Part shown: positions 13,298 through 33,212 of the stretch, one piece after another
Layout: each line of letters opens with the position of its first letter
Numbering within the stretch: the first letter of the stretch is position 1
The notes under the pieces: generated by a model
Database searches by the model: none
The model's input: only the letters and a program-made list of their open reading frames with translations
What the model was told of the DNA's origin: nothing
Program-made: the position numbers and the translations under genes
Assembly (NCBI GenBank): GCA_964370105.1
Contig: CAYJHB010000001.1
Location: forward strand, 1-33,212
Reading direction: 5' to 3'
Length of the DNA stretch: 33,212 nt
From: an uncultured Muribaculaceae bacterium
GTDB taxonomy: Bacteria; Bacillota_I; Bacilli_A; RF39; UBA660

Positions 13298-13892
13298 TGA
13301 AAAAACAACGTACATTGATGAAGAAGTAGTTATTGAAGATAATGTAATTATCTATCCTAATGTTACTTTAAGAGGTAAAACTATCATCAAGAGTAATACA
13401 GTTATTGAATCAAATAGTATTATTATTAATAGTATTATAGGTGAAAATAATTATATTAAAGCTTCATATATTGAAAACAGTGAAATTGGTAGTAGTAATA
13501 AAATCGGTCCTTTTGCCCACTTAGATAAAGCAATATTGGAAGATAATAATATCATAGGAAATTACGTAGAAATTAAAAGAAGTGAACTAGGAAATGATAA
13601 TAAAGCCAAACATTTAAGTTATTTAGGAGATTCTAAATTAGAAAATAATATTAACATAGGAGCATCTACTATTATCGCTAATTACAATAGTAAAAGAAAA
13701 TTAAAAAGTAAATCAACAGTTAAGAGTAATGTTTCAACAGGGGCACATGTAACTTTAATTTCTCCAATAACTGTGGAAAAACACACACAAATAGCTGCTG
13801 GATCAACTATAACTGTAGATATTCCAAAAAATTCCTTAGTGATAGCAAGAAGTAAAGAAGTTATAAAAAAAGATTACTATAAGGAGAACTAA
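13284..13892 (+). CDS. Stand-alone left-handed beta-helix acetyltransferase resembling the C-terminal domain of GlmU
   Basis: Hexapeptide repeats throughout. The block GNYVEIKRSELGNDNKAKHLSYLGDSKLENNINIGASTIIANYN...AAGSTITVDIPKNSLVIARS resembles the GlmU acetyltransferase core (VEiK...HLsYlGD...NiGaGtIt.NYDG...AAGs.vT.dVP...L.i.R). SD AAGGAGG at 13271-13277 precedes ATG 13284, so the track start at 13248 is rejected. The gene overlaps the yihY-like gene by 14 nt. Confidence 0.8.
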   Translation: MKIIDEKTTYIDEEVVIEDNVIIYPNVTLRGKTIIKSNTVIESNSIIINSIIGENNYIKASYIENSEIGSSNKIGPFAHLDKAILEDNNIIGNYVEIKRSELGNDNKAKHLSYLGDSKLENNINIGASTIIANYNSKRKLKSKSTVKSNVSTGAHVTLISPITVEKHTQIAAGSTITVDIPKNSLVIARSKEVIKKDYYKEN

Positions 13893-15112
13893 TGCAAGAT
13901 ATAATAATCAAAAAACAACAAGGTTTAGAACTGACTAAAGAAGAGCTAAGTAATATCTTCAATGGATATATAGAAAACACCGTTACTGACGAAGTAATGA
14001 CGCTGTTGTTAAAGGCAATATGTTCTAAAGGAATGACAGATCAAGAAATATATGATTTGACTGATATTTTTATTAAGAGTGGAGATATTATAGATCTTAG
14101 TCAAATAGAAGGAATAAAAGTAGACAAACATTCAACTGGTGGTGTAGGTGATAAGACAACTTTAATTATCGGACCAATTGTCGCGGCTTGTAATGTAAAA
14201 TTTGCCAAGATGAGTGGTCGAGGATTAGGACACACAGGTGGTACAATTGATAAACTAGAAAGTGTTGCTGGTTTTAAAACTACTCTAACAGAAGAAGAAT
14301 TTATTAATCAAGTTAAAGAATTAAATATATCCCTAGTATCCCAAACAGCTAACTTAGTGCCTATGGATAAAAAAGTCTATGCTTTAAGAGATGTTACTAA
14401 CACAGTAGCATCAATCCCGCTAATAGCAGTTAGTATTATGAGTAAAAAAATAGCAAGTGGAGCAGATAAAATACTTATTGATATCAAACTAGGTAAAGGA
14501 GCATTCTTAAAAACAAAAGAAGAAGCTGAAAAACTATCAAACTTAATGATAGCTATAGGGAAAGATTTTAACCGTGAAGTAAGAACAATTATAACAGATA
14601 TGGATAATCCTCTAGGTAAAGCAATTGGTAATAGCTTGGAAGTAATGGAAGCTATCCAGGTATTGAAAAATGAGACAACTGATTATTTAAGAGATTTATG
14701 TATAGAACTTTCTACTAATTTGGTAAGCATGGGAAAAAACATAGACTACAGTAGTGCAAAGGAAGAAGTTATTCAAAGCCTTCTAACAGGAAAAGCTTAT
14801 AATAAATTTTTAGAATTTATTAATGCTCAAGGAGGAAATATTAATAGTTTAGAAATAAGTCCAAATTATGTTGAAATTATTGCCGAAAAAGAAGGGATAG
14901 TTAAAAGTATTGATGCCCTAAAACTAGGTTTACTAGCAGTCGAATTAGGTGCAGGAAGAAAAGAAAAAAACCAACCAATAAATCATCAAGTAGGAATAGT
15001 ACTTGAAAAACAAGTAGATGATATAGTGACAATAGGTGACTCATTATTAAAAATATATTATGATAAAAAACCACCAGTTATTAACAGTAATGACTATATT
15101 ATAATTGAGTAG
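13892..15112 (+). CDS. pdp: Pyrimidine-nucleoside (thymidine) phosphorylase
   Basis: KHSTGGVGDKTTL, SGRGLGHTGGTIDKLES and ALRDVT motifs. 406 aa. The ATG overlaps the preceding TAA. Confidence 0.95.
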   Translation: MQDIIIKKQQGLELTKEELSNIFNGYIENTVTDEVMTLLLKAICSKGMTDQEIYDLTDIFIKSGDIIDLSQIEGIKVDKHSTGGVGDKTTLIIGPIVAACNVKFAKMSGRGLGHTGGTIDKLESVAGFKTTLTEEEFINQVKELNISLVSQTANLVPMDKKVYALRDVTNTVASIPLIAVSIMSKKIASGADKILIDIKLGKGAFLKTKEEAEKLSNLMIAIGKDFNREVRTIITDMDNPLGKAIGNSLEVMEAIQVLKNETTDYLRDLCIELSTNLVSMGKNIDYSSAKEEVIQSLLTGKAYNKFLEFINAQGGNINSLEISPNYVEIIAEKEGIVKSIDALKLGLLAVELGAGRKEKNQPINHQVGIVLEKQVDDIVTIGDSLLKIYYDKKPPVINSNDYIIIE

Positions 15113-16268: not shown

Positions 16269-16290
16269 AACACTTTTTAAGTGTTTTTTT
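16267..16290. terminator. Bidirectional rho-independent terminator between convergent genes
   Basis: AAAACACTT (16267-16275), TTT loop, AAGTGTTTT (16279-16287). It is flanked by an A-run and a T-run. It lies between the capA-like stop and the stop of the - strand gene. Confidence 0.8.
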
Positions 16291-17237: not shown

Positions 17238-20200
17238 ATGACAAAATTAATCAGCAATTATAAAACTAACAAGAAATATCTAGCAAAGTATTACAAAAAA
17301 CTAGTCTCCTTAACAAAGAAAAAAAACTATGTCGGAGCTAACAATGAATGGTTAATTGATAATTATCATGTTCTATTATTAAATGACGCCGAAGTCAAAA
17401 AAACTATAAAAATAAGTGATAATGTTTATCAACTTAATAATTACAATCAAGATTTACTAAAAACAATAGAAGAAGTCTTAGAAGATAGCAATTATAAAGT
17501 AAATATTAATAGCTTCATCAATAAATTGAAAACTAAAGGATATGAGTATACATATAAAGAATTAAATATGTTAACTACTATTATCTTATTTATTCTTGTT
17601 AATAAAGTTAGTGATATCTATCATGAAGAATCATCTAATATTAGTGATTTACTAGAAGCAAAAAAAATAAGAAAAAAACTTTTACAAGAACAATTAAATT
17701 CTTTTAAAAATTACAAAAAGTACACAAGAGGAATTGAAAAAAGACCAGTATTTTTAGAAAATATTGTTTACTTGATTCAAGAGATGGACTCATCATCACA
17801 ACATCTACTAGCAGAGTTAAATGATTACTTAGAAACAAAAGGAACAACTATAAAAGAAATGCTAAATAACATTCATCAACAACAAGCTGATAATAATATA
17901 ATAATTATTAATATATGGACTAGTTTAAATGAATTGTTGAAAGCTCAAATAACAACTGTGTATAATAAACTTAGTAATACAGAACAATTATTAAAACAAG
18001 ATAAAATGTATAAACAAATGGATGATAGATCAAAAGAAATCTATCGTCAAAAAATAATAAAATTAGCTAAAAGACTGAAAATAGAAGAAGAAGAGTTTGT
18101 AGAAAAACTAATAAAAAAATCTAAAGATGATGAAAAACATATTGGATTTTATTTATTTAAAACACCAAATATAAAGTTACGTACAACAACTTATATGGGA
18201 GCTATGTTATCGTTTACTGTTCTATTAACATTAGCACTTACTGTTATTTTTATACCACAAAAGATTTTGGGATTTTTCCTATTATTATTACCCTGTAATG
18301 AATTAGTATTTCAAATATTAAATAATTTTTTACTACGACACAGTAATCCAGATGAAATAGTTAAATTAGATTATGATAAAGGAATACCTAACAGTTCAGC
18401 AGTAATGATTGTAATGCCAACTATTGTTAAAAATAAAGAGAAAGTAATTTCATTATTTAAAACTTTAGAGACATATTACTTATCAAATATTGGTAAAAAC
18501 GTTCATTTTACATTACTTGCTGATGGTAAAGAAAACAAAGAAGAACACTATGAATTTGATGATGAAATTAATCAAGCTGGATTAGATGAGTGTTTAAGAT
18601 TAAATAAAAAATATGGAAGAGATATCTTTTTCTTTATTCATCGTAGAAGATTTTATAATAAAAATGAAGGATCATGGTTAGGAATAGAACGTAAAAGGGG
18701 AGCTCTTAATCATTTCAATTTAACATTGTTAAATAAATTAACAAAGGAAGAAAAGCAAAAATACTTCCAAGTTCAAAATTTAGATACCTTAAAAAGTAAA
18801 ATAAAGTATGTCATAACTTTGGATACCGATACACAATTAGTAGTTAATACAGTATCAAAACTAGTAGGAGCAATGGATCATCCGCTTAATACACCGGTTC
18901 TAAATAAAACTAAAACCAAAGTAGTTAGTGGTTATGGTATTATGCAACCTAAAATTAGTCTAGATATAGAATCAACAAATAGAAGTATTTATTCCCAATT
19001 ATTTGTAGGTATTGGTGGTTTTGATATTTATAACAGAACAACACCTAATCTTTATCAAGATATCTTTAAAGAAGGATCGTTTGTTGGAAAAGGAATTTAT
19101 AATTTAGAAACATATGATCAAGTACTAACTAATGCATTCCCAGATAATTTAATTTTAAGTCATGATTTAGTAGAGGGTAATTATTTAAGATGCGCTTACT
19201 TATCTGACATTGAACTATATGATGATTTTCCATCTAAATATCTAACTGATGCTATGCGTAAACATCGTTGGGCAAGAGGAGATACACAAATAAGTGGATG
19301 GATGTTCAAAAAAGTAAGAAACGCTAGAAATAGAAAAGTAAATAATCCATTTAACTTTATAGAAAAGTGGAAAATCTTTGATAACTTACGTCGTAGTTTC
19401 TTAGATTTTAGTTACTTATTAATTATAATAGCAGCATGTTTCTTAAATGCTAAAACTCCAGTTATCTTTCCTATTTTAGTTTTAATCATTATCTTACTAC
19501 CAATTCTTTATTATTTTTTAACAAAAATAAATTATAGAGCTTTTTTTGGTATCAAAAGAAAGAGATACCGTCGTTATTTTTATGGTAGTATCGCAGTCTT
19601 TTTAAGATGTTTAACAACGTTCGCTCTAATTCCATATAATGCTTTCTTATATTTAGATGCTACTATTAGATCTTTATATAGAATGCTAATTAGTAAGAAA
19701 AAACTACTTAATTGGATTACTGCAGAAGAAGCAGAAAAAATGGTTAAAAATAACCTTTCTGCATACTTTAAAAGATTCTTAATCAATTATATAGTCGGAA
19801 TTATCTTTATTGTTCTTGGCTTAGTAGATGATAGTTATACTATTATTATCTTTGGATTATTATTTATGGGAGCTCCATTACTACTATATTGGATTAGTAA
19901 AGAGTTCAATGAAAATAAAAATATTGAAAAGAAAAAGGAAGAAGTATTAACAAAACTAGCTTATGATACATGGAAATATTTTGATGATTTATTAACTGAT
20001 GAAAATAATTACTTAATACCAGATAATTATCAATTAAATAGAGAAGAAAAAGTAGGTGTACAAACATCGCCTACTAACATAGGAATGTCTATTTTAAGTA
20101 TCATATCAGCTTATGAGTTCAAATTTATTACATTAGAAAAAGCTTTATCATTACTAAATAGTATTATTAGTACTGTCGAAGAGCTAGATAAATGGAATGG

Positions 20201-23200
20201 ACATTTATATAATTGGTACTTAGTAGACACAAAAGAAAAACTATATCCATTTTATATTTCATCAGTAGATAGTGCTAACTTTGTAGCATCACTATACACT
20301 CTAAAATCTTTTGCAGAACAACATCAAGATAAAAGACTAAGAGATGTAACACATGAGTTGATTAAAAATACGAACTTCAGTTTATTATATACAGAAGAAG
20401 ATGTTTTTAGTATAGGATATAATACATTAGAAGAAAAATTATCACCATTCAATTATAATAAATTTGCAAGTGAAAGTAGAATTTTAAGCTATATTGGTAT
20501 TGCATCTTTAGAAGCGCCAGTTAAGCATTGGTTCTGTCTAGATAAAACGATAACTAGTTATAAAAGAGAAAAAGGTTTAACATCATGGGCTGGAACATCA
20601 TTTGAATATTTTATGCCTCTTATTTTCATGCGTAACTATAAAAATACTTTATTAGATGAAAGCTATAACTTTGCCGTTAAATGTCAAAAAGATTATATCA
20701 ATAGCATCAACACTGATCTACCTTGGGGAATATCAGAGTCAGCTTATGCTGAATATGAAGATAATTCAAACTACAAATACAAGACTTTTGGAACTCCTCA
20801 TTTAAAGTTACAGAACAAGGATCCAGAAAGAATTGTAATTTCTCCTTATGCATCATTAATAGCTGTTGATTATGCTAAAGACATAGTTGAAAATATTGAA
20901 AAATATCAAAAAATTGATATGTATAACCAATATGGATTATTAGAAGCATATGATTATACAAAAAAAACACCAGTAAAAGCTTATTTTGCACATCATCAAG
21001 GAATGATTTTAGCAAGTTTAGCTAATCACTTAAAAAATGATGCAATTCAAAACTATTTCCATGAAAATGTTGAAATAAATACTTTTGAAATATTATTAAA
21101 GGAAAAAGCACAAATTAAGTGCCATATTGATAAAAAGATTAATAAATACAAAAGTTATGATTATGAAAAAGAAGATATCCAAAACGATATCAGACAAATT
21201 AAATCATTATCAGCAAGACCAGAAATATCAGTTATTTCTAATGGAAAATATGCCTTATTAATAAACGAAAGAGGTAATGGTTTCTCAAGGTATCGTACAA
21301 CACAATTAAATCGTTATCGTAAAATAACAGAACAAGCCTATGGAATGTTGTTATATTTTAAAGATTTAAACAATAACAAAGTGTGGTCTAATACATATGC
21401 ACCTATGAATGTAAAACCAGATGATTATGAAGCTATCTTTGCTACTGATAAAATCAAATTTATAAATAAGACAAATGAAATAACAACAACAACAGAAATT
21501 GTCGTGGGAACAAAACATAATTCTGAAATACGTAAATATACATTTTATAATAATTCAGATGAAATTAAAAAATTACAATTAACAACTTACAATGAACCTA
21601 CGATTGGACCAAATAGCGATGACATTGCTCATCGTACATACCAAAACTTATTTGTGAAAACAGAATATAATGACCAAGAAAAATTCTTAGTATCATCAAG
21701 AGAAAAAGAAAATAAGATAAAATATGTTGTTAATAAGTTATATAGTAAAAAACAAGATTTAGTTATTGAATATGAAACAACAAGAGAAAAATTTATCGGT
21801 AGAAATAGAAATACAGATAATCCAGTGGCATTAGAAAACGATAATTTAACTAATACTTACGGTGACGGAATTGATCCAGTCATGAGTTTGAGAACAACAA
21901 TTGAACTTAAACCACAAGAAAAACAAGTAATTTATTTTGTGAATGGGTACTCAAGAAGTATGGACCAAGTAAAAGATTTAGTTCGCTATTATAACAAAGG
22001 AACAAATCTTGAAAAAGCATTTGAACTGGCTAACATCAAAAATAATATGAATACTAAGCTACTAAATTTACATGGTGCAGAAATGAGACTATATAACATT
22101 ATGCTTAATTATTTATACCAAACAAGTAGATTGAATGTACCAAAAGCAAGAACAGACATCATGAAAAACAATACACTATCACAAGAATCATTGTGGAAGT
22201 TTGGTATTAGTGGAGATAGACCTTTAATTTTAGTGAATGTTAATGAAATAAAAGATATTGGTTTAATCAAAGAATTATTAAAAGCTTATGAGTATTTTAA
22301 ATCAAGATCACTATTTATTGATTTAGTAATAGTTAATAACAATATATTAGAATGTAGTCATATTTTAGAAGTGATTACTAATGAAACAAAGTATAAAATA
22401 GAAAATATTTATAATATTGATAATAATTTAGGTAACATTAATATCATTGAAAAAGACCAATTAACTGAAGAAGAAGTAATTCTCTTACAAGAAGTAGCAA
22501 GACTAAATATCAATAGTGAAGAATATCTATCTCTGTATGAATACATTGCAAATCTACAAGGTATGAATGTTTTAATTCCATATAGAAGACATAATCACGA
22601 AAAAACTATTAAGTATGAAGTTGATAATTTAGAATATTACAATGGCTATGGTGGTTTTGCTAATGAAGGTAAAGAGTATATTATTAATAATCCAAATACC
22701 CCAACACCATGGAGTAATGTCCTAGCTAATAAAACATTTGGTAGTATTGTTACTAATAATGCAAATGGATATACTTACTATGGAAATTCAAGAGAGTTTA
22801 AAATATCATCATGGACTAACGATATTGTAGTGGATGATAAAAGTGAAGGGATTAAAGTTAATGGAAAACACTTTAACCCATCTCTGACAACACATGGTTT
22901 TGGATATTCAACATTTACAAGTCAAGGAAATGATTACGAAGGTAATTTAACTGAATTTGTACATTATGTAGATAATATAAAATATTACTTATTCAAATTA
23001 AAAAATATAAGTAAAGAAACTAAGAAATATACACTTAACTTTTGGATGAATCCAGTACTAGGTGTAACAGAAGAAAAAACAGCTAGACATATATATTCTG
23101 AAATGCTTGAAAATGAGAACGCTTTATTACTGAGAAATGTATATAATAAGATTTTTGGAAATGTTAATATCTTAATGACATCAAGCGAAAAAATTACTGA

Positions 23201-24890
23201 TTATTCTTATAGTAAAGTACTGATTAGAAGTATTAATATTGAAGTAGAACTAGAACCAGGAAAAGAAAAAGAAATTTCTTTCATGATTAAAGCTACAACA
23301 GATAATATAACTTTTGATAAGAGTATAAAAGCTGTTAAGAAAGAATTACTTAATACTAAGAAATATTGGCATGATACATTATCTACTATTCAAGTTAAAA
23401 CACCAGATTCTAGCCTTGACTATATGCTTAATGGATGGTACTTATATCAAGCACTAGCGTGTAGAATATATGCTAAATCAGGATTTTATCAAGTAGGTGG
23501 AGCATATGGATATCGTGATCAATTACAAGATGCATCAAATCTTACTAATATAAATCCCGAAACATCAAAAAAACAAATTTTAAATAATGCTACTCATCAG
23601 TTTAAAGAAGGAGATGTTCTTCACTGGTGGCATAAAGAATTAAGTTTTGGGTTACGTTCAAGATATAAAGATGATTACTTATGGTTAGTATATGCAACAC
23701 TTTCATATATTGAAAAAACAGAAGATTTATCTATTTTAGATGAGCAAGTACCATTTGTAGAAGGTGAAGAATTACAAGAATTCGAATCAGAAAAAGGTAT
23801 GCCATTTACTTATTCAAATTACCAAGAAAGCTTGAAATATCATATGTTCTTAGCACTGGAAAAGTCTATGAATTCATTAGGAAAGCATGGAATACCACTT
23901 ATGGGTGGAGGAGACTGGAACGATGGTATGAATAAAGTTGGTATAGAAGGTAAAGGAGAAAGTGTTTGGTTAGGTTTCTTCCTACACTTAATTATTGATA
24001 AATTAGTTAATGTTTTTGATAAATTTGAAATAGAATATGACAAAAACAAGTATGTTGATTTTAATTTTGAACTAAAAAAAGATATATTGAATAATTGCTA
24101 TGATAAAGAGTATTATCTAAGAGCATTCTTTGATAATGGTGATAAGTTAGGATCAATAGAAAATGATGAATGTAAAATAGACTTATTATCACAAAGTTTT
24201 GCTATTTTATCAGAAGTAGCAACTAAAGAACAAGTTAAATCAATCTTAAAAAATACTGAAAGTACATTAGTCGATAAAGAGACAAAAATAATCAAACTAT
24301 TAACACCAGCATTTAAAAATTCAAAAAACAATCCTGGATATATTAAACACTACCCAGTAGGAATCAGAGAAAATGGTGGGCAATATACTCACTCAGTAGC
24401 TTGGTATATCATGGCTCTATGTCAAGCAAAAGAACATGACAAAGCCTATGAATATTATCAAATGATTAATCCAGTTAATAGAACTACTAATCAACAAGAT
24501 ACTGATACTTATGCCTTAGAACCATATGTTATCGCAGCAGATATTTATACTAATGAAAGATATAAAGGCCGTGGTGGATGGAACTGGTATACAGGAAGTG
24601 CAGCTTGGTTTTACAGAGTAGGTATTGAAATAATATTAGGATTTAATAAAAAAGGTAATAAATTAACAATTACACCACATATTCCTAAACATTTTAATCA
24701 ATATGAAATAACTTATAAATATCAAGATACAACATATCATATTACTGTTAATAATAAGAAAGAGACATCTACTGAATACATTGTAGATGGTAAAAAAACA
24801 GATTTTATAGCATTAATAAATGATAAAAAACAACACGAAGTAGTTGTTAATTTAGCAAAGGAGATTAACTATGATCAAATTGGATTTTAA
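17238..24890 (+). CDS. Cyclic beta-1,2-glucan synthase-like multidomain protein (Cgs/ChvB/NdvB family: N-terminal region, GT84-type glycosyltransferase, 6 TM segments, central glucan-binding/cyclisation region, C-terminal GH94 phosphorylase domain)
   Basis: 2550-aa uninterrupted ORF. It has NEWLIDNYHVL near the N-terminus, glycosyltransferase motifs ITLDTDTQL (DxD at 18822-18830) and HRWARGD (19264-19281), and paired hydrophobic segments flanking the GT region. The C-terminal part carries GH94 hallmarks: YRDQLQD, GGGDWNDGMN (23910-23924) and ENGGQYTH. Confidence 0.88.
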   Translation: MTKLISNYKTNKKYLAKYYKKLVSLTKKKNYVGANNEWLIDNYHVLLLNDAEVKKTIKISDNVYQLNNYNQDLLKTIEEVLEDSNYKVNINSFINKLKTKGYEYTYKELNMLTTIILFILVNKVSDIYHEESSNISDLLEAKKIRKKLLQEQLNSFKNYKKYTRGIEKRPVFLENIVYLIQEMDSSSQHLLAELNDYLETKGTTIKEMLNNIHQQQADNNIIIINIWTSLNELLKAQITTVYNKLSNTEQLLKQDKMYKQMDDRSKEIYRQKIIKLAKRLKIEEEEFVEKLIKKSKDDEKHIGFYLFKTPNIKLRTTTYMGAMLSFTVLLTLALTVIFIPQKILGFFLLLLPCNELVFQILNNFLLRHSNPDEIVKLDYDKGIPNSSAVMIVMPTIVKNKEKVISLFKTLETYYLSNIGKNVHFTLLADGKENKEEHYEFDDEINQAGLDECLRLNKKYGRDIFFFIHRRRFYNKNEGSWLGIERKRGALNHFNLTLLNKLTKEEKQKYFQVQNLDTLKSKIKYVITLDTDTQLVVNTVSKLVGAMDHPLNTPVLNKTKTKVVSGYGIMQPKISLDIESTNRSIYSQLFVGIGGFDIYNRTTPNLYQDIFKEGSFVGKGIYNLETYDQVLTNAFPDNLILSHDLVEGNYLRCAYLSDIELYDDFPSKYLTDAMRKHRWARGDTQISGWMFKKVRNARNRKVNNPFNFIEKWKIFDNLRRSFLDFSYLLIIIAACFLNAKTPVIFPILVLIIILLPILYYFLTKINYRAFFGIKRKRYRRYFYGSIAVFLRCLTTFALIPYNAFLYLDATIRSLYRMLISKKKLLNWITAEEAEKMVKNNLSAYFKRFLINYIVGIIFIVLGLVDDSYTIIIFGLLFMGAPLLLYWISKEFNENKNIEKKKEEVLTKLAYDTWKYFDDLLTDENNYLIPDNYQLNREEKVGVQTSPTNIGMSILSIISAYEFKFITLEKALSLLNSIISTVEELDKWNGHLYNWYLVDTKEKLYPFYISSVDSANFVASLYTLKSFAEQHQDKRLRDVTHELIKNTNFSLLYTEEDVFSIGYNTLEEKLSPFNYNKFASESRILSYIGIASLEAPVKHWFCLDKTITSYKREKGLTSWAGTSFEYFMPLIFMRNYKNTLLDESYNFAVKCQKDYINSINTDLPWGISESAYAEYEDNSNYKYKTFGTPHLKLQNKDPERIVISPYASLIAVDYAKDIVENIEKYQKIDMYNQYGLLEAYDYTKKTPVKAYFAHHQGMILASLANHLKNDAIQNYFHENVEINTFEILLKEKAQIKCHIDKKINKYKSYDYEKEDIQNDIRQIKSLSARPEISVISNGKYALLINERGNGFSRYRTTQLNRYRKITEQAYGMLLYFKDLNNNKVWSNTYAPMNVKPDDYEAIFATDKIKFINKTNEITTTTEIVVGTKHNSEIRKYTFYNNSDEIKKLQLTTYNEPTIGPNSDDIAHRTYQNLFVKTEYNDQEKFLVSSREKENKIKYVVNKLYSKKQDLVIEYETTREKFIGRNRNTDNPVALENDNLTNTYGDGIDPVMSLRTTIELKPQEKQVIYFVNGYSRSMDQVKDLVRYYNKGTNLEKAFELANIKNNMNTKLLNLHGAEMRLYNIMLNYLYQTSRLNVPKARTDIMKNNTLSQESLWKFGISGDRPLILVNVNEIKDIGLIKELLKAYEYFKSRSLFIDLVIVNNNILECSHILEVITNETKYKIENIYNIDNNLGNINIIEKDQLTEEEVILLQEVARLNINSEEYLSLYEYIANLQGMNVLIPYRRHNHEKTIKYEVDNLEYYNGYGGFANEGKEYIINNPNTPTPWSNVLANKTFGSIVTNNANGYTYYGNSREFKISSWTNDIVVDDKSEGIKVNGKHFNPSLTTHGFGYSTFTSQGNDYEGNLTEFVHYVDNIKYYLFKLKNISKETKKYTLNFWMNPVLGVTEEKTARHIYSEMLENENALLLRNVYNKIFGNVNILMTSSEKITDYSYSKVLIRSINIEVELEPGKEKEISFMIKATTDNITFDKSIKAVKKELLNTKKYWHDTLSTIQVKTPDSSLDYMLNGWYLYQALACRIYAKSGFYQVGGAYGYRDQLQDASNLTNINPETSKKQILNNATHQFKEGDVLHWWHKELSFGLRSRYKDDYLWLVYATLSYIEKTEDLSILDEQVPFVEGEELQEFESEKGMPFTYSNYQESLKYHMFLALEKSMNSLGKHGIPLMGGGDWNDGMNKVGIEGKGESVWLGFFLHLIIDKLVNVFDKFEIEYDKNKYVDFNFELKKDILNNCYDKEYYLRAFFDNGDKLGSIENDECKIDLLSQSFAILSEVATKEQVKSILKNTESTLVDKETKIIKLLTPAFKNSKNNPGYIKHYPVGIRENGGQYTHSVAWYIMALCQAKEHDKAYEYYQMINPVNRTTNQQDTDTYALEPYVIAADIYTNERYKGRGGWNWYTGSAAWFYRVGIEIILGFNKKGNKLTITPHIPKHFNQYEITYKYQDTTYHITVNNKKETSTEYIVDGKKTDFIALINDKKQHEVVVNLAKEINYDQIGF

Positions 24891-28065: not shown

Positions 28066-29880
28066 ATGAATAGTTCAAATATAGGAGCTATATATGCATT
28101 CCTATTTAATTTAATTGTACTAATCGCATACTTTTCTAAAAAAAGAGTTAACACAAAAGAGACAACACTTTATAAGTGGCTTTTGATTACTTCATTATCT
28201 GGAACTATTTTAAGCATAAGTTCATATTATGTTCTAACATCAGTGACAACTATAACTGATATAGTAACACTTGCGCCAAAAATATATTTATTTAATTTGT
28301 TAATATGGGGAACCTTATTTACAATGTATATGACAAGTGTAGCTATTCCAAATAATAAACAAACATCTTTAAAATTATATAATACTTTTTTTGTGATAAT
28401 AGGAGCAGTAGCAGCAGTGTTATTATTTGTTTTGCCGCTTGACATTGTCAGCAATGGTAGTAGAGTATACACAACAGGATGGAGTCAAAATGTATTATAT
28501 GTACTAGTTATTATTAATGCCATAATTGTGTTGATATTGATAGTGATTAATTTCAAAAAAATACCATTAAAAAAAATATTGCCAATTTTAACTTTTGTTG
28601 TAATAAGTTTGCTAGTATTCTTTGTTCAATATCAAAATCCAAGTTTGTTTTTAATAACTATTAGTATTACATTAAATACAACATTAATGTATCACACCAT
28701 TGAAAACCCTGATGTCAAAATGATTAATAAATTAGAAGTTGCTAAAGCACAAGCAGAAAAAGCTAATAATGCTAAAAGTGATTTCTTATCGAGTATGTCA
28801 CATGAGATAAGAACTCCTCTAAATGCAATTGTAGGGTTAAGTGAATATGTAAATAGTAAAGAGACTGTGCCAGAAGAAATAAAAGGTGATTTACAAGACA
28901 TTGTTAATGCATCTAGTACACTACTAGAAATAGTAGGTAATATCTTAGATATTAATAAAATTGAAAGTGAAAAAATGGAAATCACTAATGTTACTTATAA
29001 CTTTAAAGAAGAACTAAGAAAAATTGCTAAGATGAATAAAACAAGAGTTTCTGATAAAGGCTTGGTATTAAATATCACAATAGCAAAAGATATTCCGTAT
29101 GAGTTAATAGGTGATAAAGTTCATGTTAAGTCTATTATTAACAACTTATTATCTAATGCTATTAAATATACTGAAAAAGGTGAAATAACGATTAATGTTA
29201 ACTGTATTAATCAAAATAACATATGTACTCTAATAATATCAGTAAGAGATACAGGGCGTGGTATAAAAGCAGATTCTATTAATAAGCTATTCGAAAAATT
29301 TGAACGACTAGACATAGAAAAAAACAGTACTACAGAAGGAACAGGATTAGGCCTAGCAATAACTAAAAAAATAGTGGAATTAATGGGTGGTAAGATAAAT
29401 GCCCAAAGCCAATATGGACAAGGAAGTATATTTGTGGTTCATTTGCCACAAACAATTTCCAAATTAGAAAGTGATAATATTGAGGAAATATCAAATGAAA
29501 CACCAATTCTAAATAACCAAGGAAAGAAAATCTTAATAGTAGATGATAATAATTTAAATATTAAAGTTGCTAAAAAACTATTGGAAGGGACTAACTGTAT
29601 AATAGAAGAGTGCACAACTGGAGAAGAATGTTTAACAAAAACAAAAGACAATAGTTATGATCTGATTCTTCTAGATATAATGATGCCTAAGATGAGTGGA
29701 GAAGAAGTATTAAAAAAATTAAAAGAAAATAATGATTTTAATACACCAGTAGTAGCATTAACCGCCGATGCTGTCTTAGGAGCTAAAAACAAATATATAG
29801 AAGAAGGATTTACTAACTATTTAGCAAAACCATTCAATAAAGAACAAATTACCAATCTTGTTAATACTATTTTAAAATAG
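28066..29880 (+). CDS. Hybrid sensor histidine kinase: polytopic membrane sensor, HisKA, HATPase_c and a C-terminal receiver domain
   Basis: About 6-7 TM segments in the first 210 aa. H-box SHEIRTPLNAI (His codon 28801-28803), N-box NLLSNAIKYT, G1 DTGRGI, G2 GTGLGLAI. The receiver has ILIVDDN, LILLDIMMP (Asp codon 29674-29676), ALTADA and AKP. Confidence 0.92.
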   Translation: MNSSNIGAIYAFLFNLIVLIAYFSKKRVNTKETTLYKWLLITSLSGTILSISSYYVLTSVTTITDIVTLAPKIYLFNLLIWGTLFTMYMTSVAIPNNKQTSLKLYNTFFVIIGAVAAVLLFVLPLDIVSNGSRVYTTGWSQNVLYVLVIINAIIVLILIVINFKKIPLKKILPILTFVVISLLVFFVQYQNPSLFLITISITLNTTLMYHTIENPDVKMINKLEVAKAQAEKANNAKSDFLSSMSHEIRTPLNAIVGLSEYVNSKETVPEEIKGDLQDIVNASSTLLEIVGNILDINKIESEKMEITNVTYNFKEELRKIAKMNKTRVSDKGLVLNITIAKDIPYELIGDKVHVKSIINNLLSNAIKYTEKGEITINVNCINQNNICTLIISVRDTGRGIKADSINKLFEKFERLDIEKNSTTEGTGLGLAITKKIVELMGGKINAQSQYGQGSIFVVHLPQTISKLESDNIEEISNETPILNNQGKKILIVDDNNLNIKVAKKLLEGTNCIIEECTTGEECLTKTKDNSYDLILLDIMMPKMSGEEVLKKLKENNDFNTPVVALTADAVLGAKNKYIEEGFTNYLAKPFNKEQITNLVNTILK

Positions 29881-29948: not shown

Positions 29949-31106
29949 ATGAAATATTTAAAGCTATTACTAATAGGATTGCTATTACCAATTAATATTA
30001 ATGCTGAGGAAGTAGAGACACCCACTGATTACTTAGAAAATGCTAATACAGGTGTTTTGATAGAAGCAACTACAAAAGAAGTATTATTTGATAAAAATAT
30101 GCATGAACAAGTATCAGTAGCATCCCTAACTAAAATGGTTGGATTGATAATTATTATGGAACAACTAGAAGAAGGTAAAATAAGTCTTACAGATGAAGTG
30201 ACAATTAGTAGTAATGCATCAGGTATGGGCGGAACACAAATATTCTTATCAACCGGTGAAATAATGAGTTTAGAAGATTTAATTAAAGGAATTGTTATGG
30301 CTAGTGCAAATGACGCTATTGTCGCAGCTGGAGAATATATCGCAGGTACTGAAGAAGAATTTGTTAAGTTAATGAATGAAAAAGTAAACGAACTAGGATT
30401 AGAAAATACTAATTTTAAAAATAGCACAGGATTTGATGAAGAAGGACATTACTCAAGCGCATATGATATGGCAATTATTGCTAGTGAATTAGTAAAACAT
30501 GAAGATATACTCAAATATTCATCTATATATGAAGATTATTTAAGAGAAGATACTGAAAATAAATTTTGGCTTGTAAACACCAATAAACTAGTAAGATTTT
30601 ATGATGGTGCAGACGGACTAAAAACAGGGTATACAGATGATGCCTTATCTACTATGGCAGCAACTGCTAAAAAAGATGATATGAGGCTAATAGCTATTAC
30701 ATTAGGATATGAAAACTCAACAACTAGAAATGAAGAAACAATAGATCTTTTAGATTATGGTTTTAATAATTATAAAGTAACAACTATAAAAAAACAAACA
30801 GATATTGTAGATAAAGTTAATCTAACTAAAAGTAATCAATTAATTGAAGTTGTTCCTATCTATGATGTACAAGTTTTAACTAAAAAAAATGAAACTGAGA
30901 AAAACTATGAAACAAAAGTTAAAATATATGAGTTACAACTTCCCATAAAACCAAATGATATCATTGGTAAAATGACTATTTATGATGAAGGAAATATCGT
31001 CAATGAAGTCGATTTAACAGTAACTAAAGAAATAAAAAAAGTAGGTTACTTTGAACTGTTATTTAATACCATCAAAGATATAATAAGTGGAACTATTAAA
31101 TTATAG
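29949..31106 (+). CDS. dacF: D-alanyl-D-alanine carboxypeptidase (S11, PBP5 type), at the dacF position upstream of spoIIAA
   Basis: Signal peptide, then SVASLTKM (SxxK), ASAND (SxN) and KTGYT (KTG), plus a C-terminal beta-sandwich domain. SD AGGAG is present. The symbol rests on synteny with B. subtilis dacF-spoIIA, so dacA/dacB-type paralogy cannot be excluded. Confidence 0.85.
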   Translation: MKYLKLLLIGLLLPININAEEVETPTDYLENANTGVLIEATTKEVLFDKNMHEQVSVASLTKMVGLIIIMEQLEEGKISLTDEVTISSNASGMGGTQIFLSTGEIMSLEDLIKGIVMASANDAIVAAGEYIAGTEEEFVKLMNEKVNELGLENTNFKNSTGFDEEGHYSSAYDMAIIASELVKHEDILKYSSIYEDYLREDTENKFWLVNTNKLVRFYDGADGLKTGYTDDALSTMAATAKKDDMRLIAITLGYENSTTRNEETIDLLDYGFNNYKVTTIKKQTDIVDKVNLTKSNQLIEVVPIYDVQVLTKKNETEKNYETKVKIYELQLPIKPNDIIGKMTIYDEGNIVNEVDLTVTKEIKKVGYFELLFNTIKDIISGTIKL

Positions 31107-31114
31107 TTCCTTTT
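31089..31114 (+). terminator. Rho-independent terminator after dacF
   Basis: GGAACTAT (31089-31096), 6-nt loop, ATAGTTCC (31103-31110), then TTTT. It includes the TAG stop. Confidence 0.75.
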
Positions 31115-31115
31115 A

Positions 31116-31134
31116 TTCGACATACTTCGACATA
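31116..31134 (-). promoter_or_regulatory. Two tandem Spo0A boxes (TGTCGAA read on the - strand), 10-bp phased
   Basis: TTCGACAta-c-TTCGACAta: TTCGACA at 31116-31122 and 31126-31132, which is the reverse complement of the 0A-box consensus TGNCGAA. The boxes are separated by a 3-bp spacer. Confidence 0.6.
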
Positions 31135-31192
31135 AACAAAAGATATACTTTACACATACTTAGTTAAATAAAAGAAAAAGAAAATAAACATT

Positions 31193-31199
31193 TGTCGAA
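31193..31199 (+). promoter_or_regulatory. Third Spo0A box (TGTCGAA, + orientation) upstream of spoIIAA
   Basis: Perfect TGTCGAA at 31193-31199, 53 nt upstream of the spoIIAA ATG. Confidence 0.55.
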
Positions 31200-31251: not shown

Positions 31252-31596
31252 ATGTTAACAATTAATATGGAATTTAGAAAAGGAATTTTATTTCTTCGTT
31301 TAAATGGAAGTTTAAACAAAAAGAATGCTAAGTCCTTAAAAAACAAAGTTGATGAATTAGTCAAAGAGAAAGGAGTTAAATTTTTTGTTTATAATCTGTC
31401 TCATTTAGAAGAAATAGATGATTTAGGTATTAATACAATCAAAGATAATTATCAACAAATAAGTTGTGCTAAAGGAGAAATGGTCTTATGCGATATAAGT
31501 TCTTCTATTAAATTATGTATTAATGGAGACCATGTTTTAAAACATACAAACCAAATAGACGATGAGTTATCAGCTTTTCACAAAATAAAAATATAA
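31252..31596 (+). CDS. spoIIAA: STAS-domain anti-anti-sigma factor, SpoIIAA-like
   Basis: Aligns without gaps by eye to B. subtilis SpoIIAA: (V)xNLxxLxxxDxxGxxxI ... GEMVLCDIS versus IVLNLEDLSFMDSSGLGVIL ... GEMVVCAIS. SD GAGGTG lies 6 nt before ATG 31252, so the track start GTG 31243 is rejected. It lies directly upstream of a SigF-like gene. Confidence 0.85.
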   Translation: MLTINMEFRKGILFLRLNGSLNKKNAKSLKNKVDELVKEKGVKFFVYNLSHLEEIDDLGINTIKDNYQQISCAKGEMVLCDISSSIKLCINGDHVLKHTNQIDDELSAFHKIKI

Positions 31597-31607
31597 GGAA
31601 TGATAAA

Positions 31608-32273
31608 TTGACAAATGAACAAGTAGATTTAATAGTAGAACATGAAAAACTAATATATTCCATTATTTCAAAGTATAAAGGTTATTTTGATAAAGATGAT
31701 TTATATCAAGTAGGAGTAATAGGACTGTTAAATGCTAAAGAAAATTACAATAGTGGGTATAACACTAAATTCTCCACTTATGCCTATACTTATATCTTAG
31801 GAGAAATATCTAAGTATGTAAGAGAAGATAGAAGTATTAAAGTAAGCAAAGATATTCTAAAAAGAAGCAAATTAGTAGAAAGAACTAAAGAATTAATGAC
31901 ACAAAAGTTGATGAGAGAACCAACTATTTTAGAATTATCATTATATTTAGATTTAGATGAAATTAAAATAGAGGAGGCTATAAGTGCTAAAGAATATATT
32001 AAAAGCCTAGATAAAGAGACTAACGAAGAAGGTAAAGGAGTTAATTTATATGATTATGTCCAAGATAAGGAACAAGCATACAAACCAGAAGTAATGGACT
32101 TAAATACTATATTAAGTAGTTTAACTGAAGAAGAAAAAAACTTAATTAATATGCGCTACTATCAAGGATATACTCAACAAGAAACATCGCAAGAACTAGG
32201 AACATCACAAGTACAAATATCACGTAAAGAAAGTAAAATACTAAATAAAATAAAAGATAAAATGATTGCTTAA
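31608..32273 (+). CDS. sigF: Sporulation-type group-3 sigma-70 factor, SigF-like
   Basis: DLYQVGVIGLL (region 2), FSTYAYTYILGEISKYVREDRSIKVS (compare FSTYAVPMIIGEIQRFIRDDGTVKVS in B. subtilis SigF), and region 4 LGTSQVQISRKESKILNKIK (compare LGISQVQVSRLEKKILKQIK). The start is TTG with AAGGA upstream. In-frame ATG alternatives are absent. Confidence 0.85.
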   Translation: MTNEQVDLIVEHEKLIYSIISKYKGYFDKDDLYQVGVIGLLNAKENYNSGYNTKFSTYAYTYILGEISKYVREDRSIKVSKDILKRSKLVERTKELMTQKLMREPTILELSLYLDLDEIKIEEAISAKEYIKSLDKETNEEGKGVNLYDYVQDKEQAYKPEVMDLNTILSSLTEEEKNLINMRYYQGYTQQETSQELGTSQVQISRKESKILNKIKDKMIA

Positions 32274-32399
32274 ATTCCGTTGATAATCTAACAATGTCAA
32301 ATGTTTGTATTATAAAAATGACAACTACAAAACTAAAGAAAAAAAGAAAATGTAAATACAAATACTAGATTAATCAAATAAAACTTATAAATTAAAAAA

Positions 32400-32425
32400 A
32401 GATAAATAAATATATTTGTCTTTTT
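32400..32425. terminator. Possible weak, AT-rich bidirectional terminator between sigF and pflB
   Basis: AGATAAATA (32400-32408), 4-nt loop, TATTTGTCT (32413-32421) with one G-U pair. It is preceded by an A-run and followed by TTTT. There is only one G-C pair, so the call is weak. Confidence 0.3.
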
Positions 32426-32456
32426 GCATGTAACCATATTTTAAATATGAAAAGAG

Positions 32457-32465
32457 TGTTATAAT
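32457..32465 (+). promoter_or_regulatory. Extended -10 element upstream of pflB
   Basis: TGtTATAAT at 32457-32465, 19 nt upstream of ATG 32484 and its SD GAAGGTGAT. The -35 (TATTTT) is poor and the leader would be very short. Confidence 0.3.
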
Positions 32466-32483
32466 GAAATAGAAGGTGATAGT

Positions 32484-33212
32484 ATGAAAGGCTGGAAAAA
32501 TTTTGAAGAAGGTAGTTGGATAAGTAGCATTGATGTTAATGGATTTATCATTGCTAATTACCATGAATATGAAGGAGATCATAATTTTTTAAGTGCTCCG
32601 ACAAAAAAAACAAAAAAAATATGGGATACTTGTAAGAAACTCTTAAAAGAAGAATTAAAAAAAGGTGTCTTAGATGTTGAAACAAAACAAGTATCAGGCG
32701 TTAATAATTTTAAACCAGGATATATTGATAAGGAAAATGAAGTTATTTTCGGATTACAAACAGATGCTCCGTTAAAAAGAATAGTTAATCCTTATGGTGG
32801 AATAAGAATGGTTTATAATTCTCTAGATGCCTATGGTTATAAATTAGATAAAGATATAGAAGAACATTTCAATAAATATCGTAAGACACATAACCAAGGT
32901 GTATTTGATGCTTATACTCCAGAAATATTACAGGCAAGAAAAGTAGGTCTTTTAACAGGTCTTCCAGATGCCTATGGAAGAGGAAGAGTGATAGGTGATT
33001 ATCGTAGAATAGCTCTATATGGAATAGATTTTTTAGTAGAAAAGAAAAAAGAAGATTTAGAAGAAATAAAAGATATTAATGATAGATCAATTGAATTAAG
33101 AGAAAATATCTCAGAACAGATAAGAGCACTAATCGAAATAAAAGAAATGGCCTCTAGTTATGGCTTTGATATTAGTGAGGGAGCTACTAATGCTAAAGAA
33201 GCAGTACAGTGG
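32484..33212 (+). CDS. pflB: Pyruvate formate-lyase (formate C-acetyltransferase), 5' part; continues beyond the window
   Basis: My own translation reads [36 protein letters not shown]...[53 protein letters not shown]...NAKEAVQW. It is nearly colinear with E. coli PflB ([53 protein letters not shown]). The frame is open to the last base (243 codons). It is absent from the ORF track because no stop lies in the window. Confidence 0.93.

What the first reader, a model, noticed from the sequence alone, without database searches (positions are those of the whole stretch)
31417..31428. The SpoIIAA phospho-acceptor serine is replaced by aspartate (D-D-L-G instead of D-S-S-G)
An ungapped by-eye alignment puts this protein's I55-D56-D57-L58-G59 (codons 31414-31428) opposite B. 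subtilis M56-D57-S58-S59-G60. The alignment is anchored on N-L-x-x-L, the Asp, the Gly and the GEMV-x-C-x-IS block. B. subtilis Ser58 is the residue phosphorylated by SpoIIAB. Here it is Asp (GAT 31420-31422) and the next Ser is Leu. Established genetics treats SpoIIAA S58D as a phosphomimetic, inactive form. A naturally locked STAS protein fits the absence of the kinase gene. It suggests either a non-switching role or a relic.
Basis: partly seen in the sequence, partly recalled or inferred. Interest (0 to 1): 0.68.

Follow-up and report, generated by a model that had tools for sequence, protein, structure and literature searches.

The report
Kinase-less SpoIIAA that lost its phospho-serine
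This small protein is the sporulation regulator SpoIIAA of an uncultured small-genome gut bacterium whose lineage has deleted the partner kinase gene from this operon, so the aspartate at the old phosphorylation site is one of many residues tolerated there, not a built-in 'off' switch, while the protein itself is still kept by selection.

Summary
ORF 31252-31596 is a 114-aa STAS protein. Sequence, profile and structure alignments all put its D57 (GAT 31420-31422) at the position of B. subtilis SpoIIAA Ser58, the first residue of helix alpha2.

The gene is the spoIIAA orthologue by synteny (pdp...dacF-spoIIAA-sigF). It belongs to a large family in uncultured Bacilli ('Tenericutes'/RF39-like MAGs, genomes of 1.26-1.49 Mb). 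In 35 of 38 family loci the sigma-F-like gene sits on the same strand downstream (within about 40 nt in 32), and there is no spoIIAB anywhere in about 536 kb of flanks.

Across 254 family members the Ser58 column is the third most variable of 114 positions (K, L, E, I, D, M, N...; D 9%, S+T 9%). The flanking I55, D56 and G59 stay conserved. So the Asp is not a selected phosphomimetic.

The gene is not a relic either. Its dN/dS is 0.07-0.17, like its neighbours. A perfect Spo0A box (TGTCGAA) sits 56-63 nt upstream of the start codon in 33 of 39 loci. Relatives also carry spoVA, spoIIGA-sigE, sigG and sigK.

Best reading: a phosphorylation-independent SpoIIAA in a reduced sigma-F module. Its partner (sigma F itself, an unknown anti-sigma, or Spo0A feedback) is inferred, not shown.

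The parts
31252..31596 (+). spoIIAA orthologue: 114-aa single-domain STAS protein of the 'ML.INMEFRKGILFVRL' family
   Evidence: Pfam STAS 9.6e-15. The best NCBIfam match is TIGR02886 spore_II_AA, 53.6 bits, below the 114.75 cut-off. AF2 pLDDT 91.5. Foldseek TM 0.92 to SpoIIAA 1THN_B. dN/dS 0.066-0.17.
31417..31428 (+). Loop and helix-alpha2 N-terminus D56-D57-L58-G59. D57 (31420-31422) occupies the former phospho-acceptor position
   Evidence: Ungapped alignment to B. subtilis D57-S58-S59-G60. Helix 57-72 in the model. In the family, D56 is 93% and G59 94% conserved, while positions 57 and 58 have entropy 3.65 and 3.30 bits.
31608..32273 (+). sigF orthologue (221 aa, TTG start 9 nt after an AAGGA ribosome-binding site), starting 11 nt after the STAS stop codon with no spoIIAB between
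   Evidence: Sigma70 r2/r3/r4. TIGR02885 SigF 166 bits against a 321 cut-off, ahead of SigG at 119-130 bits. Best PDB match is sigma F 1L0O_C, 6e-34. The same STAS-then-sigma order holds at 35 of 38 family loci.
31193..31199 (+). Perfect Spo0A-box heptamer TGTCGAA, 59 nt upstream of the STAS start codon
   Evidence: The window holds 5 matches against 1.1 expected. A perfect copy lies at -56 to -63 in 33 of 39 loci: 4.2 per kb upstream against 0.048 per kb elsewhere. The context aGTTTTGTCGAAnnnGTaTAAAA is conserved and is followed about 18 nt later by a -10-like TAAATT or TATATT.
31116..31132 (-). Two further perfect TGTCGAA heptamers in inverted orientation (31116-31122 and 31126-31132)
   Evidence: They are shared with the 94%-identical locus L003 only.
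31089..31110 (+). Terminator-like hairpin across the end of dacF, separating dacF from the STAS-sigF promoter region
   Evidence: 8-bp stem followed by a T-run, with 0.2 expected in shuffles.
29949..31106 (+). dacF-like D-Ala-D-Ala carboxypeptidase, the synteny anchor upstream of spoIIA
   Evidence: Peptidase_S11 2.7e-67 plus PBP5_C. The order dacF-spoIIAA is the same in the canonical Anoxybacillus locus L041 and in L039.
13892..15112 (+). pdp (pyrimidine-nucleoside phosphorylase), a distal synteny anchor
   Evidence: Glycos_transf_3 with PYNP_C. pdp lies upstream of dacF-spoIIA in L041 and L039.

Best explanation
The ORF is the true spoIIAA orthologue of an uncultured, small-genome gut Bacilli lineage (probably GTDB order RF39 or a neighbour).

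In this lineage the anti-sigma/kinase gene spoIIAB has been removed cleanly from the spoIIA operon. According to the literature on RF39, the phosphatase gene spoIIE is also gone. With no kinase or phosphatase, the acceptor serine lost its constraint and drifted. Asp in this genome is one neutral state among about 18 residues seen at that column, not a selected phosphomimetic.

The protein is nevertheless maintained by purifying selection. It keeps the STAS fold and the loop residues I55, D56 and G59. It shows family-specific conservation on the beta1-beta2 hairpin (E7-F-R-K-G11). It is transcribed with sigF from a promoter carrying a conserved Spo0A box.

It therefore most likely still works in the onset of sporulation as a phosphorylation-independent, dosage-controlled regulator. 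I favour an action on sigma F: either binding sigma F directly as a minimal anti-sigma or chaperone, or antagonising an unrecognised anti-sigma.

Shown: orthology, loss of the serine, absence of spoIIAB from the operon, purifying selection, and the conserved Spo0A box. Inferred: absence of a kinase genome-wide in this organism, and the identity of the binding partner.
For: Orthology and fold. Synteny pdp-dacF-AA-(AB)-sigF-spoVA matches between the canonical L041 and the clade loci L039 and L002 and the window.

No spoIIAB. The STAS stop codon is followed by the sigma start within about 40 nt in 32 of 38 loci (11 nt in the window); in two more metK is inserted between them. A SpoIIAB HMM finds nothing in 39 sources totalling 536 kb, apart from the HATPase domain of a hybrid histidine kinase. 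The same HMM scores 8.7e-93 on the control locus. Called genes within +/-10 kb of L039, L040 and L001 have no HATPase_c_2 hit.

Unconstrained acceptor column. Canonical control: 120 of 120 carry MDSSGLG.

Functional gene. dN/dS is 0.066 and 0.173 for STAS, against 0.035 and 0.158 for sigma and 0.051 and 0.154 for dacF. The Spo0A box is at a fixed distance in 33 of 39 loci. The family has at least 201 clusters (50% identity) at E<=1e-10.

Sporulation context in relatives: spoVAC/D/EB, spoIIGA-sigE, sigG, ylmC and sigK.

Sigma F is much more diverged from the canonical models (131-166 bits against a 321 cut-off) than sigE, sigG and sigK of the same clade (313/339, 327/372, 312/252). This fits altered constraints on sigma F.
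Against: - Genome-wide absence of a SpoIIAB-type kinase could not be tested for this organism. The contig is only 33 kb, and only 10-20 kb windows of related genomes were readable.
- Assignment of the clade to RF39 rests on record titles ('uncultured Bacilli/Tenericutes/Mollicutes/Acholeplasmataceae') and on agreement with the RF39 gene-loss list, not on a phylogeny.
- STAS-sigma adjacency follows automatically from deleting the middle gene, so it is not independent evidence for a direct interaction.
- The rate-covariation test did not single out the STAS-sigma pair.
- The canonical docking face (L2, T25, I55, D56, G59, C80-G81) is still conserved, which would also fit a surviving SpoIIAB-like partner.
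- In the window's own subclade sigF is followed by pflB, not spoVA, so sporulation competence of this organism is unproven. SpoMAG gave RF39 MAGs 0% sporulation probability (PMC12536801).
Confidence: 0.7

Rival explanations
1. One reading: Asp57 is a selected, constitutive phosphomimetic that locks the STAS protein in the 'SpoIIAA-P-like' inactive conformation.
For: Asp is at the acceptor position in the window, in L003 and L004, and in several other branches (L005, L012-L015, L022, L033). D+E make up 20% of the column. In B. subtilis, S58D behaves as SpoIIAA-P (established genetics, from memory).
Against: 80% of family members have non-acidic residues there, including Lys/Arg (18%) and bulky hydrophobics (38%). 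The closest outgroups have Tyr and Leu. The column is the third most variable in the protein. A locked-off antagonist with no anti-sigma to antagonise would have no reason to stay under dN/dS of about 0.07.
Confidence: 0.07
2. Relic: a decaying leftover of the partner-switching module with no function.
For: The kinase gene is missing from the operon. The score is below the SpoIIAA equivalog cut-off. These are reduced genomes.
Against: The ORF is intact at all 38 family loci where it was read (cut by the contig end in L022) across roughly 30-95% identity. dN/dS equals that of the neighbouring genes. Eleven or more nearly invariant residues remain. The promoter element is conserved. The AF2 model is confident.
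Confidence: 0.03
3. Classical partner switching survives. A divergent SpoIIAB-like anti-sigma (possibly kinase-dead, like mycobacterial UsfX) is encoded elsewhere in the genome, and the STAS protein antagonises it without phosphorylation, controlled by dosage or another signal.
For: The canonical docking face is still conserved: L2, T25, I55, D56, G59, C80-G81. Non-phosphorylated STAS antagonists exist, such as RsfA in M. tuberculosis (review PMC8256260). Sporulation normally requires sigma F to be held inactive before septation (established).
Against: No HATPase_c_2 protein was found in 536 kb around 39 loci. KEGG-based absence or reduced presence of spoIIAB in RF39 is reported. Bulky or charged residues sit at the position that enters the SpoIIAB ATP site.
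Confidence: 0.2
4. The retained function is SpoIIAA's second role, known from B. subtilis: negative feedback on Spo0A activation, independent of sigma F.
For: The review states that SpoIIAA is also a negative regulator of Spo0A activation (Arabolaza 2003, via PMC8256260). The operon carries a conserved Spo0A box, which would close a feedback loop. In the window's subclade a hybrid histidine kinase lies just upstream.
Against: From memory, in B. subtilis the active inhibitor is the unphosphorylated form, and S58A works while S58D does not; this has not been tested in this clade. These organisms may lack a phosphorelay. There is no evidence here for any contact with Spo0A-pathway proteins.
Confidence: 0.15

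Closest known systems
SpoIIAA of Bacillus subtilis / Geobacillus stearothermophilus (anti-sigma-F antagonist; PDB 1AUZ, 1TH8, 1TIL)
   Same: It has the same STAS fold (TM 0.92) and about 28-31% identity. It holds the same operon position between dacF and sigF. The D-x-x-G loop, N48, R16, G19, C80 and E105 are shared. Transcription is probably Spo0A-dependent.
   Different: There is no phospho-acceptor Ser: the column is hypervariable and is Asp here. There is no spoIIAB in the operon, and spoIIE is reported missing in RF39. The score is below the TIGR02886 cut-off. The beta1-beta2 hairpin E-F-R-K-G is family-specific.
RsfA (Rv1365c) of Mycobacterium tuberculosis, a non-phosphorylated anti-anti-sigma-F
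   Same: Both are single-domain STAS regulators of a sigma-F-type factor that are not controlled by serine phosphorylation.
   Different: RsfA acts on a SpoIIAB-family anti-sigma (UsfX) that is present in the genome and is redox-controlled through a Cys pair. Here no anti-sigma is found nearby, and only one Cys (C80) is conserved.
Non-canonical STAS-only proteins (SypA of Vibrio fischeri, RbaV, BtrV; review PMC8256260)
   Same: These STAS proteins have outputs that are not simple release of a sigma factor from a kinase-type anti-sigma. Their unknown partners are suggested to 'include sigma factors'.
   Different: All of them keep the conserved serine and a cognate kinase or phosphatase. The present family has lost the serine; its operon and the flanks read hold no kinase gene, and the phosphatase spoIIE is reported missing for RF39.
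RF39 sporulation gene set described by Field, Bowerman and Hugenholtz 2024 (PMC10868615)
   Same: The pattern matches: spoIIAB and spoIIE are reduced or absent, while sigma factors, spoIIGA and other stage genes are kept.
   Different: That paper does not mention spoIIAA, the loss of its phospho-site, or the conserved Spo0A box. Membership of this window in RF39 has not been verified.

Membership tests
STAS domain (Pfam PF01740) | Profile match above the gathering score, and a four- or five-stranded beta-sheet with four helices | tested here: met
   54.7 bits against a 22.6 cut-off. The AF2 model has strands 3-9, 12-21, 44-55, 76-80 and 100-102 and helices 26-39, 57-72, 84-91 and 105-111. Its top 50 Foldseek hits are nearly all STAS proteins or STAS domains.
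SpoIIAA (NCBIfam TIGR02886, anti-sigma F factor antagonist, equivalog) | Score above the curated equivalog cut-off | tested here: not met
   53.6 bits against a cut-off of 114.75, although it is the best-scoring family.
SpoIIAA (functional definition) | Orthologous position: first gene of the spoIIA operon, downstream of dacF and upstream of sigF and spoVA | tested here: met
   The window has dacF-STAS-sigF. L039 and L002 have dacF...STAS-sigF-spoVAC/D/EB. The canonical control L041 has pdp-dacF-AA-AB-sigF-spoVA.
SpoIIAA (functional definition) | Phosphorylatable Ser at the N-terminus of helix alpha2 (B. subtilis Ser58, motif D-S-S-G) | tested here: not met
   The residue is Asp57 here. Ser makes up 6% of the family column, against 120 of 120 in canonical Bacillaceae.
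SpoIIAA (functional definition) | Cognate anti-sigma/kinase SpoIIAB encoded next to it | tested here: not met
   The gap between the STAS stop and the sigF start is 11 nt. No SpoIIAB HMM hit was found in 39 sources totalling 536 kb, and the positive control scored 8.7e-93.
SpoIIAA-SpoIIAB-SpoIIE partner-switching module | SpoIIAB kinase and SpoIIE (PP2C) phosphatase present anywhere in the genome | not testable with these tools
   Only 33 kb of this genome and 20-kb windows or shorter of related genomes could be read. The literature reports both genes reduced or absent in RF39 (PMC10868615).
SigF (NCBIfam TIGR02885), for the downstream gene | Score above the equivalog cut-off, and best match among the sporulation sigma factors | tested here: inconclusive
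   166 bits against a 321 cut-off, so the cut-off is not met. SigF still scores above SigG (119-130), SigB (109) and the others, and the best PDB hit is sigma F 1L0O_C. A separate near-canonical sigG exists in relative L029.
Redox-controlled non-phosphorylated STAS antagonists (RsfA type) | A conserved cysteine pair able to form a regulatory disulfide | tested here: not met
   Only C80 is conserved (93%). C72 and C89 of the window protein are not.

The most novel reading that the evidence does not exclude
In a large, uncultured lineage of small-genome gut Bacilli, the forespore sigma factor is controlled without the SpoIIAB kinase/anti-sigma or the SpoIIE phosphatase. Both are counted among the universal core of endospore formers. 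Under this reading the SpoIIAA STAS protein has been converted into a phosphorylation-independent direct partner of sigma F, possibly the anti-sigma itself. It would be made under Spo0A control and released by dilution, proteolysis or transient genetic asymmetry. The result would be a two-protein minimal version of the cell-fate switch.
Probability: 0.3. Interest if true: 0.8.

Novelty: new variant of a known kind. Interest (0 to 1): 0.6.

Why it matters

This clade keeps sigF, sigE/spoIIGA, sigG, sigK, spoVA and a selected spoIIAA. It has dropped the kinase gene from the operon, the phospho-site and, according to the RF39 literature, the phosphatase. That makes it a natural experiment on two questions: how much of the partner-switching machinery is needed to set up forespore-specific transcription, and what a STAS domain can do without phosphorylation.

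It also warns against two shortcuts. One is reading single-residue 'phosphomimetics' from a pairwise alignment. The other is scoring sporulation potential of MAGs from a fixed marker list.

Tried and rejected
1. Word-indexed protein search with the single protein found only 3 relatives. The family appeared only with the genome-contig scan and the exhaustive HMM search.
2. Rate covariation (mirror-tree) between STAS and sigma in 21 loci gave partial r of 0.46 and rank-based 0.38. Sigma-SpoVAC gave 0.44, so the test does not single out a STAS-sigma interaction and I treat it as inconclusive.
4. I searched the supplement of PMC10868615 for per-genome spoIIAA/AB/IIE calls and found nothing in the stored text.
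5. I tried to place the MAGs in a GTDB order from isolate names (UMGS1271, UMGS2016, OZ006994, OW818670) in papers and from cluster names. Only 'Bacilli bacterium' came back.
6. I considered that the conserved TGTCGAA is really a sigma-H -10 element (RNNGAAT). I rejected this because the base after the heptamer is not conserved (T 13, A 9, G 3, C 2 of 27).
7. I considered the secreted coiled-coil protein that lies upstream of STAS in 15 loci as a candidate partner. It has a signal peptide and a C-terminal membrane anchor, is absent from the window, and has no Pfam match, so I did not pursue it.
8. I checked the Kurthia 'cryptosporulation' and Turicibacter papers for precedents of spoIIAB loss. 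Both organisms have spoIIAB.

Full report
OBSERVATION

The region holds a 114-codon ORF at 31252-31596 on the + strand. It starts at an ATG 5 nt after a GAGGTG ribosome-binding site.

The protein is a STAS domain (Pfam PF01740, 9.6e-15). Its best NCBIfam family is spore_II_AA (TIGR02886), but at 53.6 bits it falls well below the equivalog cut-off of 114.75.

phmmer against all PDB sequences gives ungapped alignments to B. subtilis SpoIIAA (1AUZ) and G. stearothermophilus SpoIIAA (1TH8, 1TID). These put D56-D57-L58-G59 opposite D57-S58-S59-G60, and MAFFT agrees.

An AlphaFold2 model built on 83 family members has mean pLDDT 91.5. It places strand beta3 at 44-55 and helix alpha2 at 57-72. It superposes on SpoIIAA taken from the SpoIIAB complexes with TM 0.92 and rmsd 1.3-1.6 A. 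D57 is therefore the first residue of alpha2, the structural position of the phosphoserine.

WHAT THE GENE IS

The flanks identify it as the spoIIAA orthologue. Upstream is a dacF-like PBP5 (29949-31106). Downstream, 11 nt after the stop codon, is a 221-aa sigma factor (31608-32273). Its best matches are SigF (TIGR02885, 166 bits, ahead of SigG and SigB) and the sigma F chain of 1L0O (6e-34).

A canonical control locus from Anoxybacillus reads pdp-dacF-spoIIAA-spoIIAB(146 aa, HATPase_c_2)-sigF-spoVAA/AB/AC/AD/AE. A relative on a 913-kb metagenomic contig reads pdp-vanY-dacF-nudix-x-STAS-sigma-spoVAC-spoVAD-spoVAEB. The window itself has pdp (13892-15112), vanY (16289-17122) and dacF in the same order. 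The only difference in the operon core is that spoIIAB is missing.

THE FAMILY

A scan of one genome per species found 36 loci. All come from uncultured MAGs titled Bacilli, Tenericutes, Mollicutes or Acholeplasmataceae, apart from a few obviously mis-binned titles. Two are complete chromosomes of 1.26 and 1.49 Mb.

An exhaustive HMM search of 1.84 billion cluster representatives found 629 relatives, 201 of them at E<=1e-10. Nearly all are 103-120 aa and start ML.I.MEFRKGILFVRL.G.L. Public names are 'STAS domain-containing protein [Bacilli bacterium]', or in JGI 'stage II sporulation protein AA'.

In 35 of 38 family loci with enough sequence, the sigma gene sits on the same strand downstream. 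It starts within about 40 nt of the STAS stop codon in 32 of them. In two (L018, L020) metK has been inserted between the two genes. In most loci spoVAC, spoVAD and spoVAEB come next.

An HMM built from B. subtilis and G. stearothermophilus SpoIIAB found nothing in the six-frame translation of all 39 sources (536 kb). The only weak hits were to the ATPase domain of a hybrid histidine kinase. The same HMM scores 8.7e-93 on the control locus.

THE PHOSPHO-SITE COLUMN

In 254 distinct family sequences, the column aligned to Ser58 reads K 41, L 31, E 27, I 26, D 23, M 22, N 22, S 15, Q 10, T 8 and others. Its entropy is 3.65 bits, the third highest of the 114 positions.

The neighbouring residues remain conserved: I55 (85%), D56 (93%) and G59 (94%). 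The nearest relatives of the window protein outside its own small group carry Tyr (56% identity, ITYEG) and Leu (52% identity, ISLEG). Loci whose protein happens to have Ser (L031, L036) also lack spoIIAB. By contrast, all 120 canonical Bacillaceae SpoIIAA retrieved carry MDSSGLG.

Where spoIIAB is present, Ser is invariant. Where spoIIAB is absent from the operon, the column is unconstrained. Asp is simply one of the states, not a conserved phosphomimetic.

NOT A RELIC

Nei-Gojobori dN/dS for the STAS gene is 0.066 against the 94%-identical orthologue (dS 0.59) and 0.17 against the 73%-identical one. The values for sigF are 0.035 and 0.16, and for dacF 0.051 and 0.15.

Several residues are nearly invariant across the family: M1, L2, E7, G11, I12, L13, F14, R16, L17, G19, L21, N48, D56, G59, G75, C80 and E105. 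The block E7-F-R-K-G11 on the beta1-beta2 hairpin is specific to this family; B. subtilis has N-V-K-E-S there.

The upstream region carries a perfect Spo0A-box heptamer TGTCGAA. The window has five copies against 1.1 expected. Three of them lie in the 145-nt spacer before the STAS gene, at 31116, 31126 and 31193.

Across 39 loci, a perfect copy lies 56-63 nt before the start codon in 33. The other six have one-mismatch versions at the same place. That is 4.2 per kb upstream against 0.048 per kb elsewhere. The wider conserved context is aGTTTTGTCGAAnnnGTaTAAAA, followed about 18 nt later by a -10-like TAAATT or TATATT. This geometry resembles Spo0A-activated promoters; that comparison is an inference.

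Relatives also encode spoIIGA-sigE, sigG, ylmC and sigK close by. These score near the canonical models: sigE 313 bits against a 339 cut-off, sigG 327 against 372, and sigK 312 against 252. The clade's sigF scores only 131-166 bits against a 321 cut-off. Sigma F has thus diverged far more than the other sporulation sigma factors. That is what one would expect if its constraints changed when SpoIIAB was lost (inference).

LITERATURE

Field et al. [quoted passage not shown] They do not discuss spoIIAA.

[quoted passage not shown] SpoMAG finds spoIIAB in every predicted spore-former and gives RF39 MAGs 0% probability (PMC12536801).

I found no paper describing loss of the SpoIIAA phospho-site. 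It was not tested.

HOW IT MOST LIKELY WORKS

Shown:
- The gene is a spoIIAA orthologue.
- Its acceptor site is unconstrained.
- No kinase gene lies in the operon or in the flanks read (up to 10 kb on each side of the STAS gene at each locus).
- It is under purifying selection.
- It is co-oriented and usually tightly coupled with sigF, behind a conserved Spo0A box.

Inferred: the protein works without phosphorylation, and its level is set by Spo0A-dependent transcription.

Three targets are possible.
(a) Sigma F itself. A STAS protein acting as a minimal anti-sigma or chaperone would explain how spoIIAB could be lost without deregulating sigma F, and why sigma F evolves fast.
(b) An unrecognised anti-sigma encoded elsewhere. 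The canonical docking face (L2, T25, I55, D56, G59, C80-G81) is still conserved.
(c) The Spo0A pathway. B. subtilis SpoIIAA is also a negative regulator of Spo0A activation (Arabolaza 2003, cited in PMC8256260).

I favour an action on sigma F, that is (a) or (b), at about 55% together. Direct binding gets about 30% and Spo0A feedback about 15-20%. None of these could be tested here.

COMPARISON AND VERDICT

The protein works like, and descends from, SpoIIAA. It fails three defining features of the functional family: the phosphorylatable Ser, an adjacent SpoIIAB, and the equivalog score.

The closest functional analogues are non-phosphorylated STAS antagonists such as mycobacterial RsfA. Those still have their anti-sigma.

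The finding is a new variant of a known kind. The 'phosphomimetic lock' and 'relic' readings do not. The broader phenomenon is of real interest to sporulation biology: a widespread sigma-F module without a kinase gene in its operon, and without the phosphatase according to the RF39 literature, that still keeps SpoIIAA.

Noticed in passing
window 31116-31199; loci L002-L039, 56-63 nt upstream of the STAS start: A perfect Spo0A-box heptamer TGTCGAA sits at a fixed distance upstream of the STAS-sigF operon in 33 of 39 loci. The context aGTTTTGTCGAAnnnGTaTAAAA is conserved, with a downstream -10-like TAAATT or TATATT. The window and L003 have two extra inverted copies.
   Followed up: yes
L029 10001-16535; L010 7306-8061: In relative L029 one stretch carries STAS-sigF-spoVAC/D/EB-spoIIGA-sigE-(389-aa unknown)-sigG-ylmC. 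L010 has a sigK-like gene upstream. sigE, sigG and sigK score near the canonical cut-offs, while the clade's sigF scores less than half of its cut-off.
   Followed up: partly
L018 10557-11723; L020: The housekeeping gene metK (SAM synthetase) is inserted between the STAS gene and sigF in two loci. In L012-L015, L022 and L024 metK lies directly upstream of STAS.
   Followed up: partly
L005 8619-9914 and the equivalent gene in 14 other loci (for example L019 7779-9929): A fast-evolving 370-715-aa protein lies directly upstream of the STAS gene in 15 loci but not in the window. It has a signal peptide, a conserved N-terminal domain, a long coiled coil and a C-terminal membrane anchor, and no Pfam match.
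   Followed up: partly
window 32274-33212; L001 3628-6569: In the window's own subclade sigF is followed by pflB and pflA (pyruvate formate-lyase and its activase) instead of the spoVA operon found after sigF in most relatives. Sporulation competence of this particular organism is therefore open.
   Followed up: partly
window 28066-29880: A membrane-bound hybrid histidine kinase (HisKA + HATPase + receiver) lies upstream of dacF. It is conserved in L003 and L004 and present in L026. It gave the only weak hits to the SpoIIAB HMM.
   Followed up: partly
window 17238-24890: This is a 2550-aa ORF with GH94 catalytic, supersandwich and glucoamylase-like domains, resembling a cyclic beta-1,2-glucan synthase or phosphorylase. 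That is unusually large for a genome of this apparent size class. A PGI-like gene follows it.
   Followed up: no
P0004 (2748 aa) and P0067 (1442 aa): Two very long proteins match the STAS family profile in 16 and 6 separate stretches, so they appear to be tandem arrays of STAS-like domains.
   Followed up: no
L003, L004, L011, L027, L028, L031, L036, L038 (record titles): Several contigs that carry this Bacilli-type sporulation locus belong to MAGs titled Muribaculaceae, Phocaeicola vulgatus or Oribacterium. This probably reflects mis-binning or mislabelled records.
   Followed up: no
window 31608-32273 and clade sigma genes: The sigF orthologues are 212-223 aa, about 25-30 residues shorter at the N-terminus than canonical sigma F (249-255 aa). 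The window gene uses a TTG start.
   Followed up: partly
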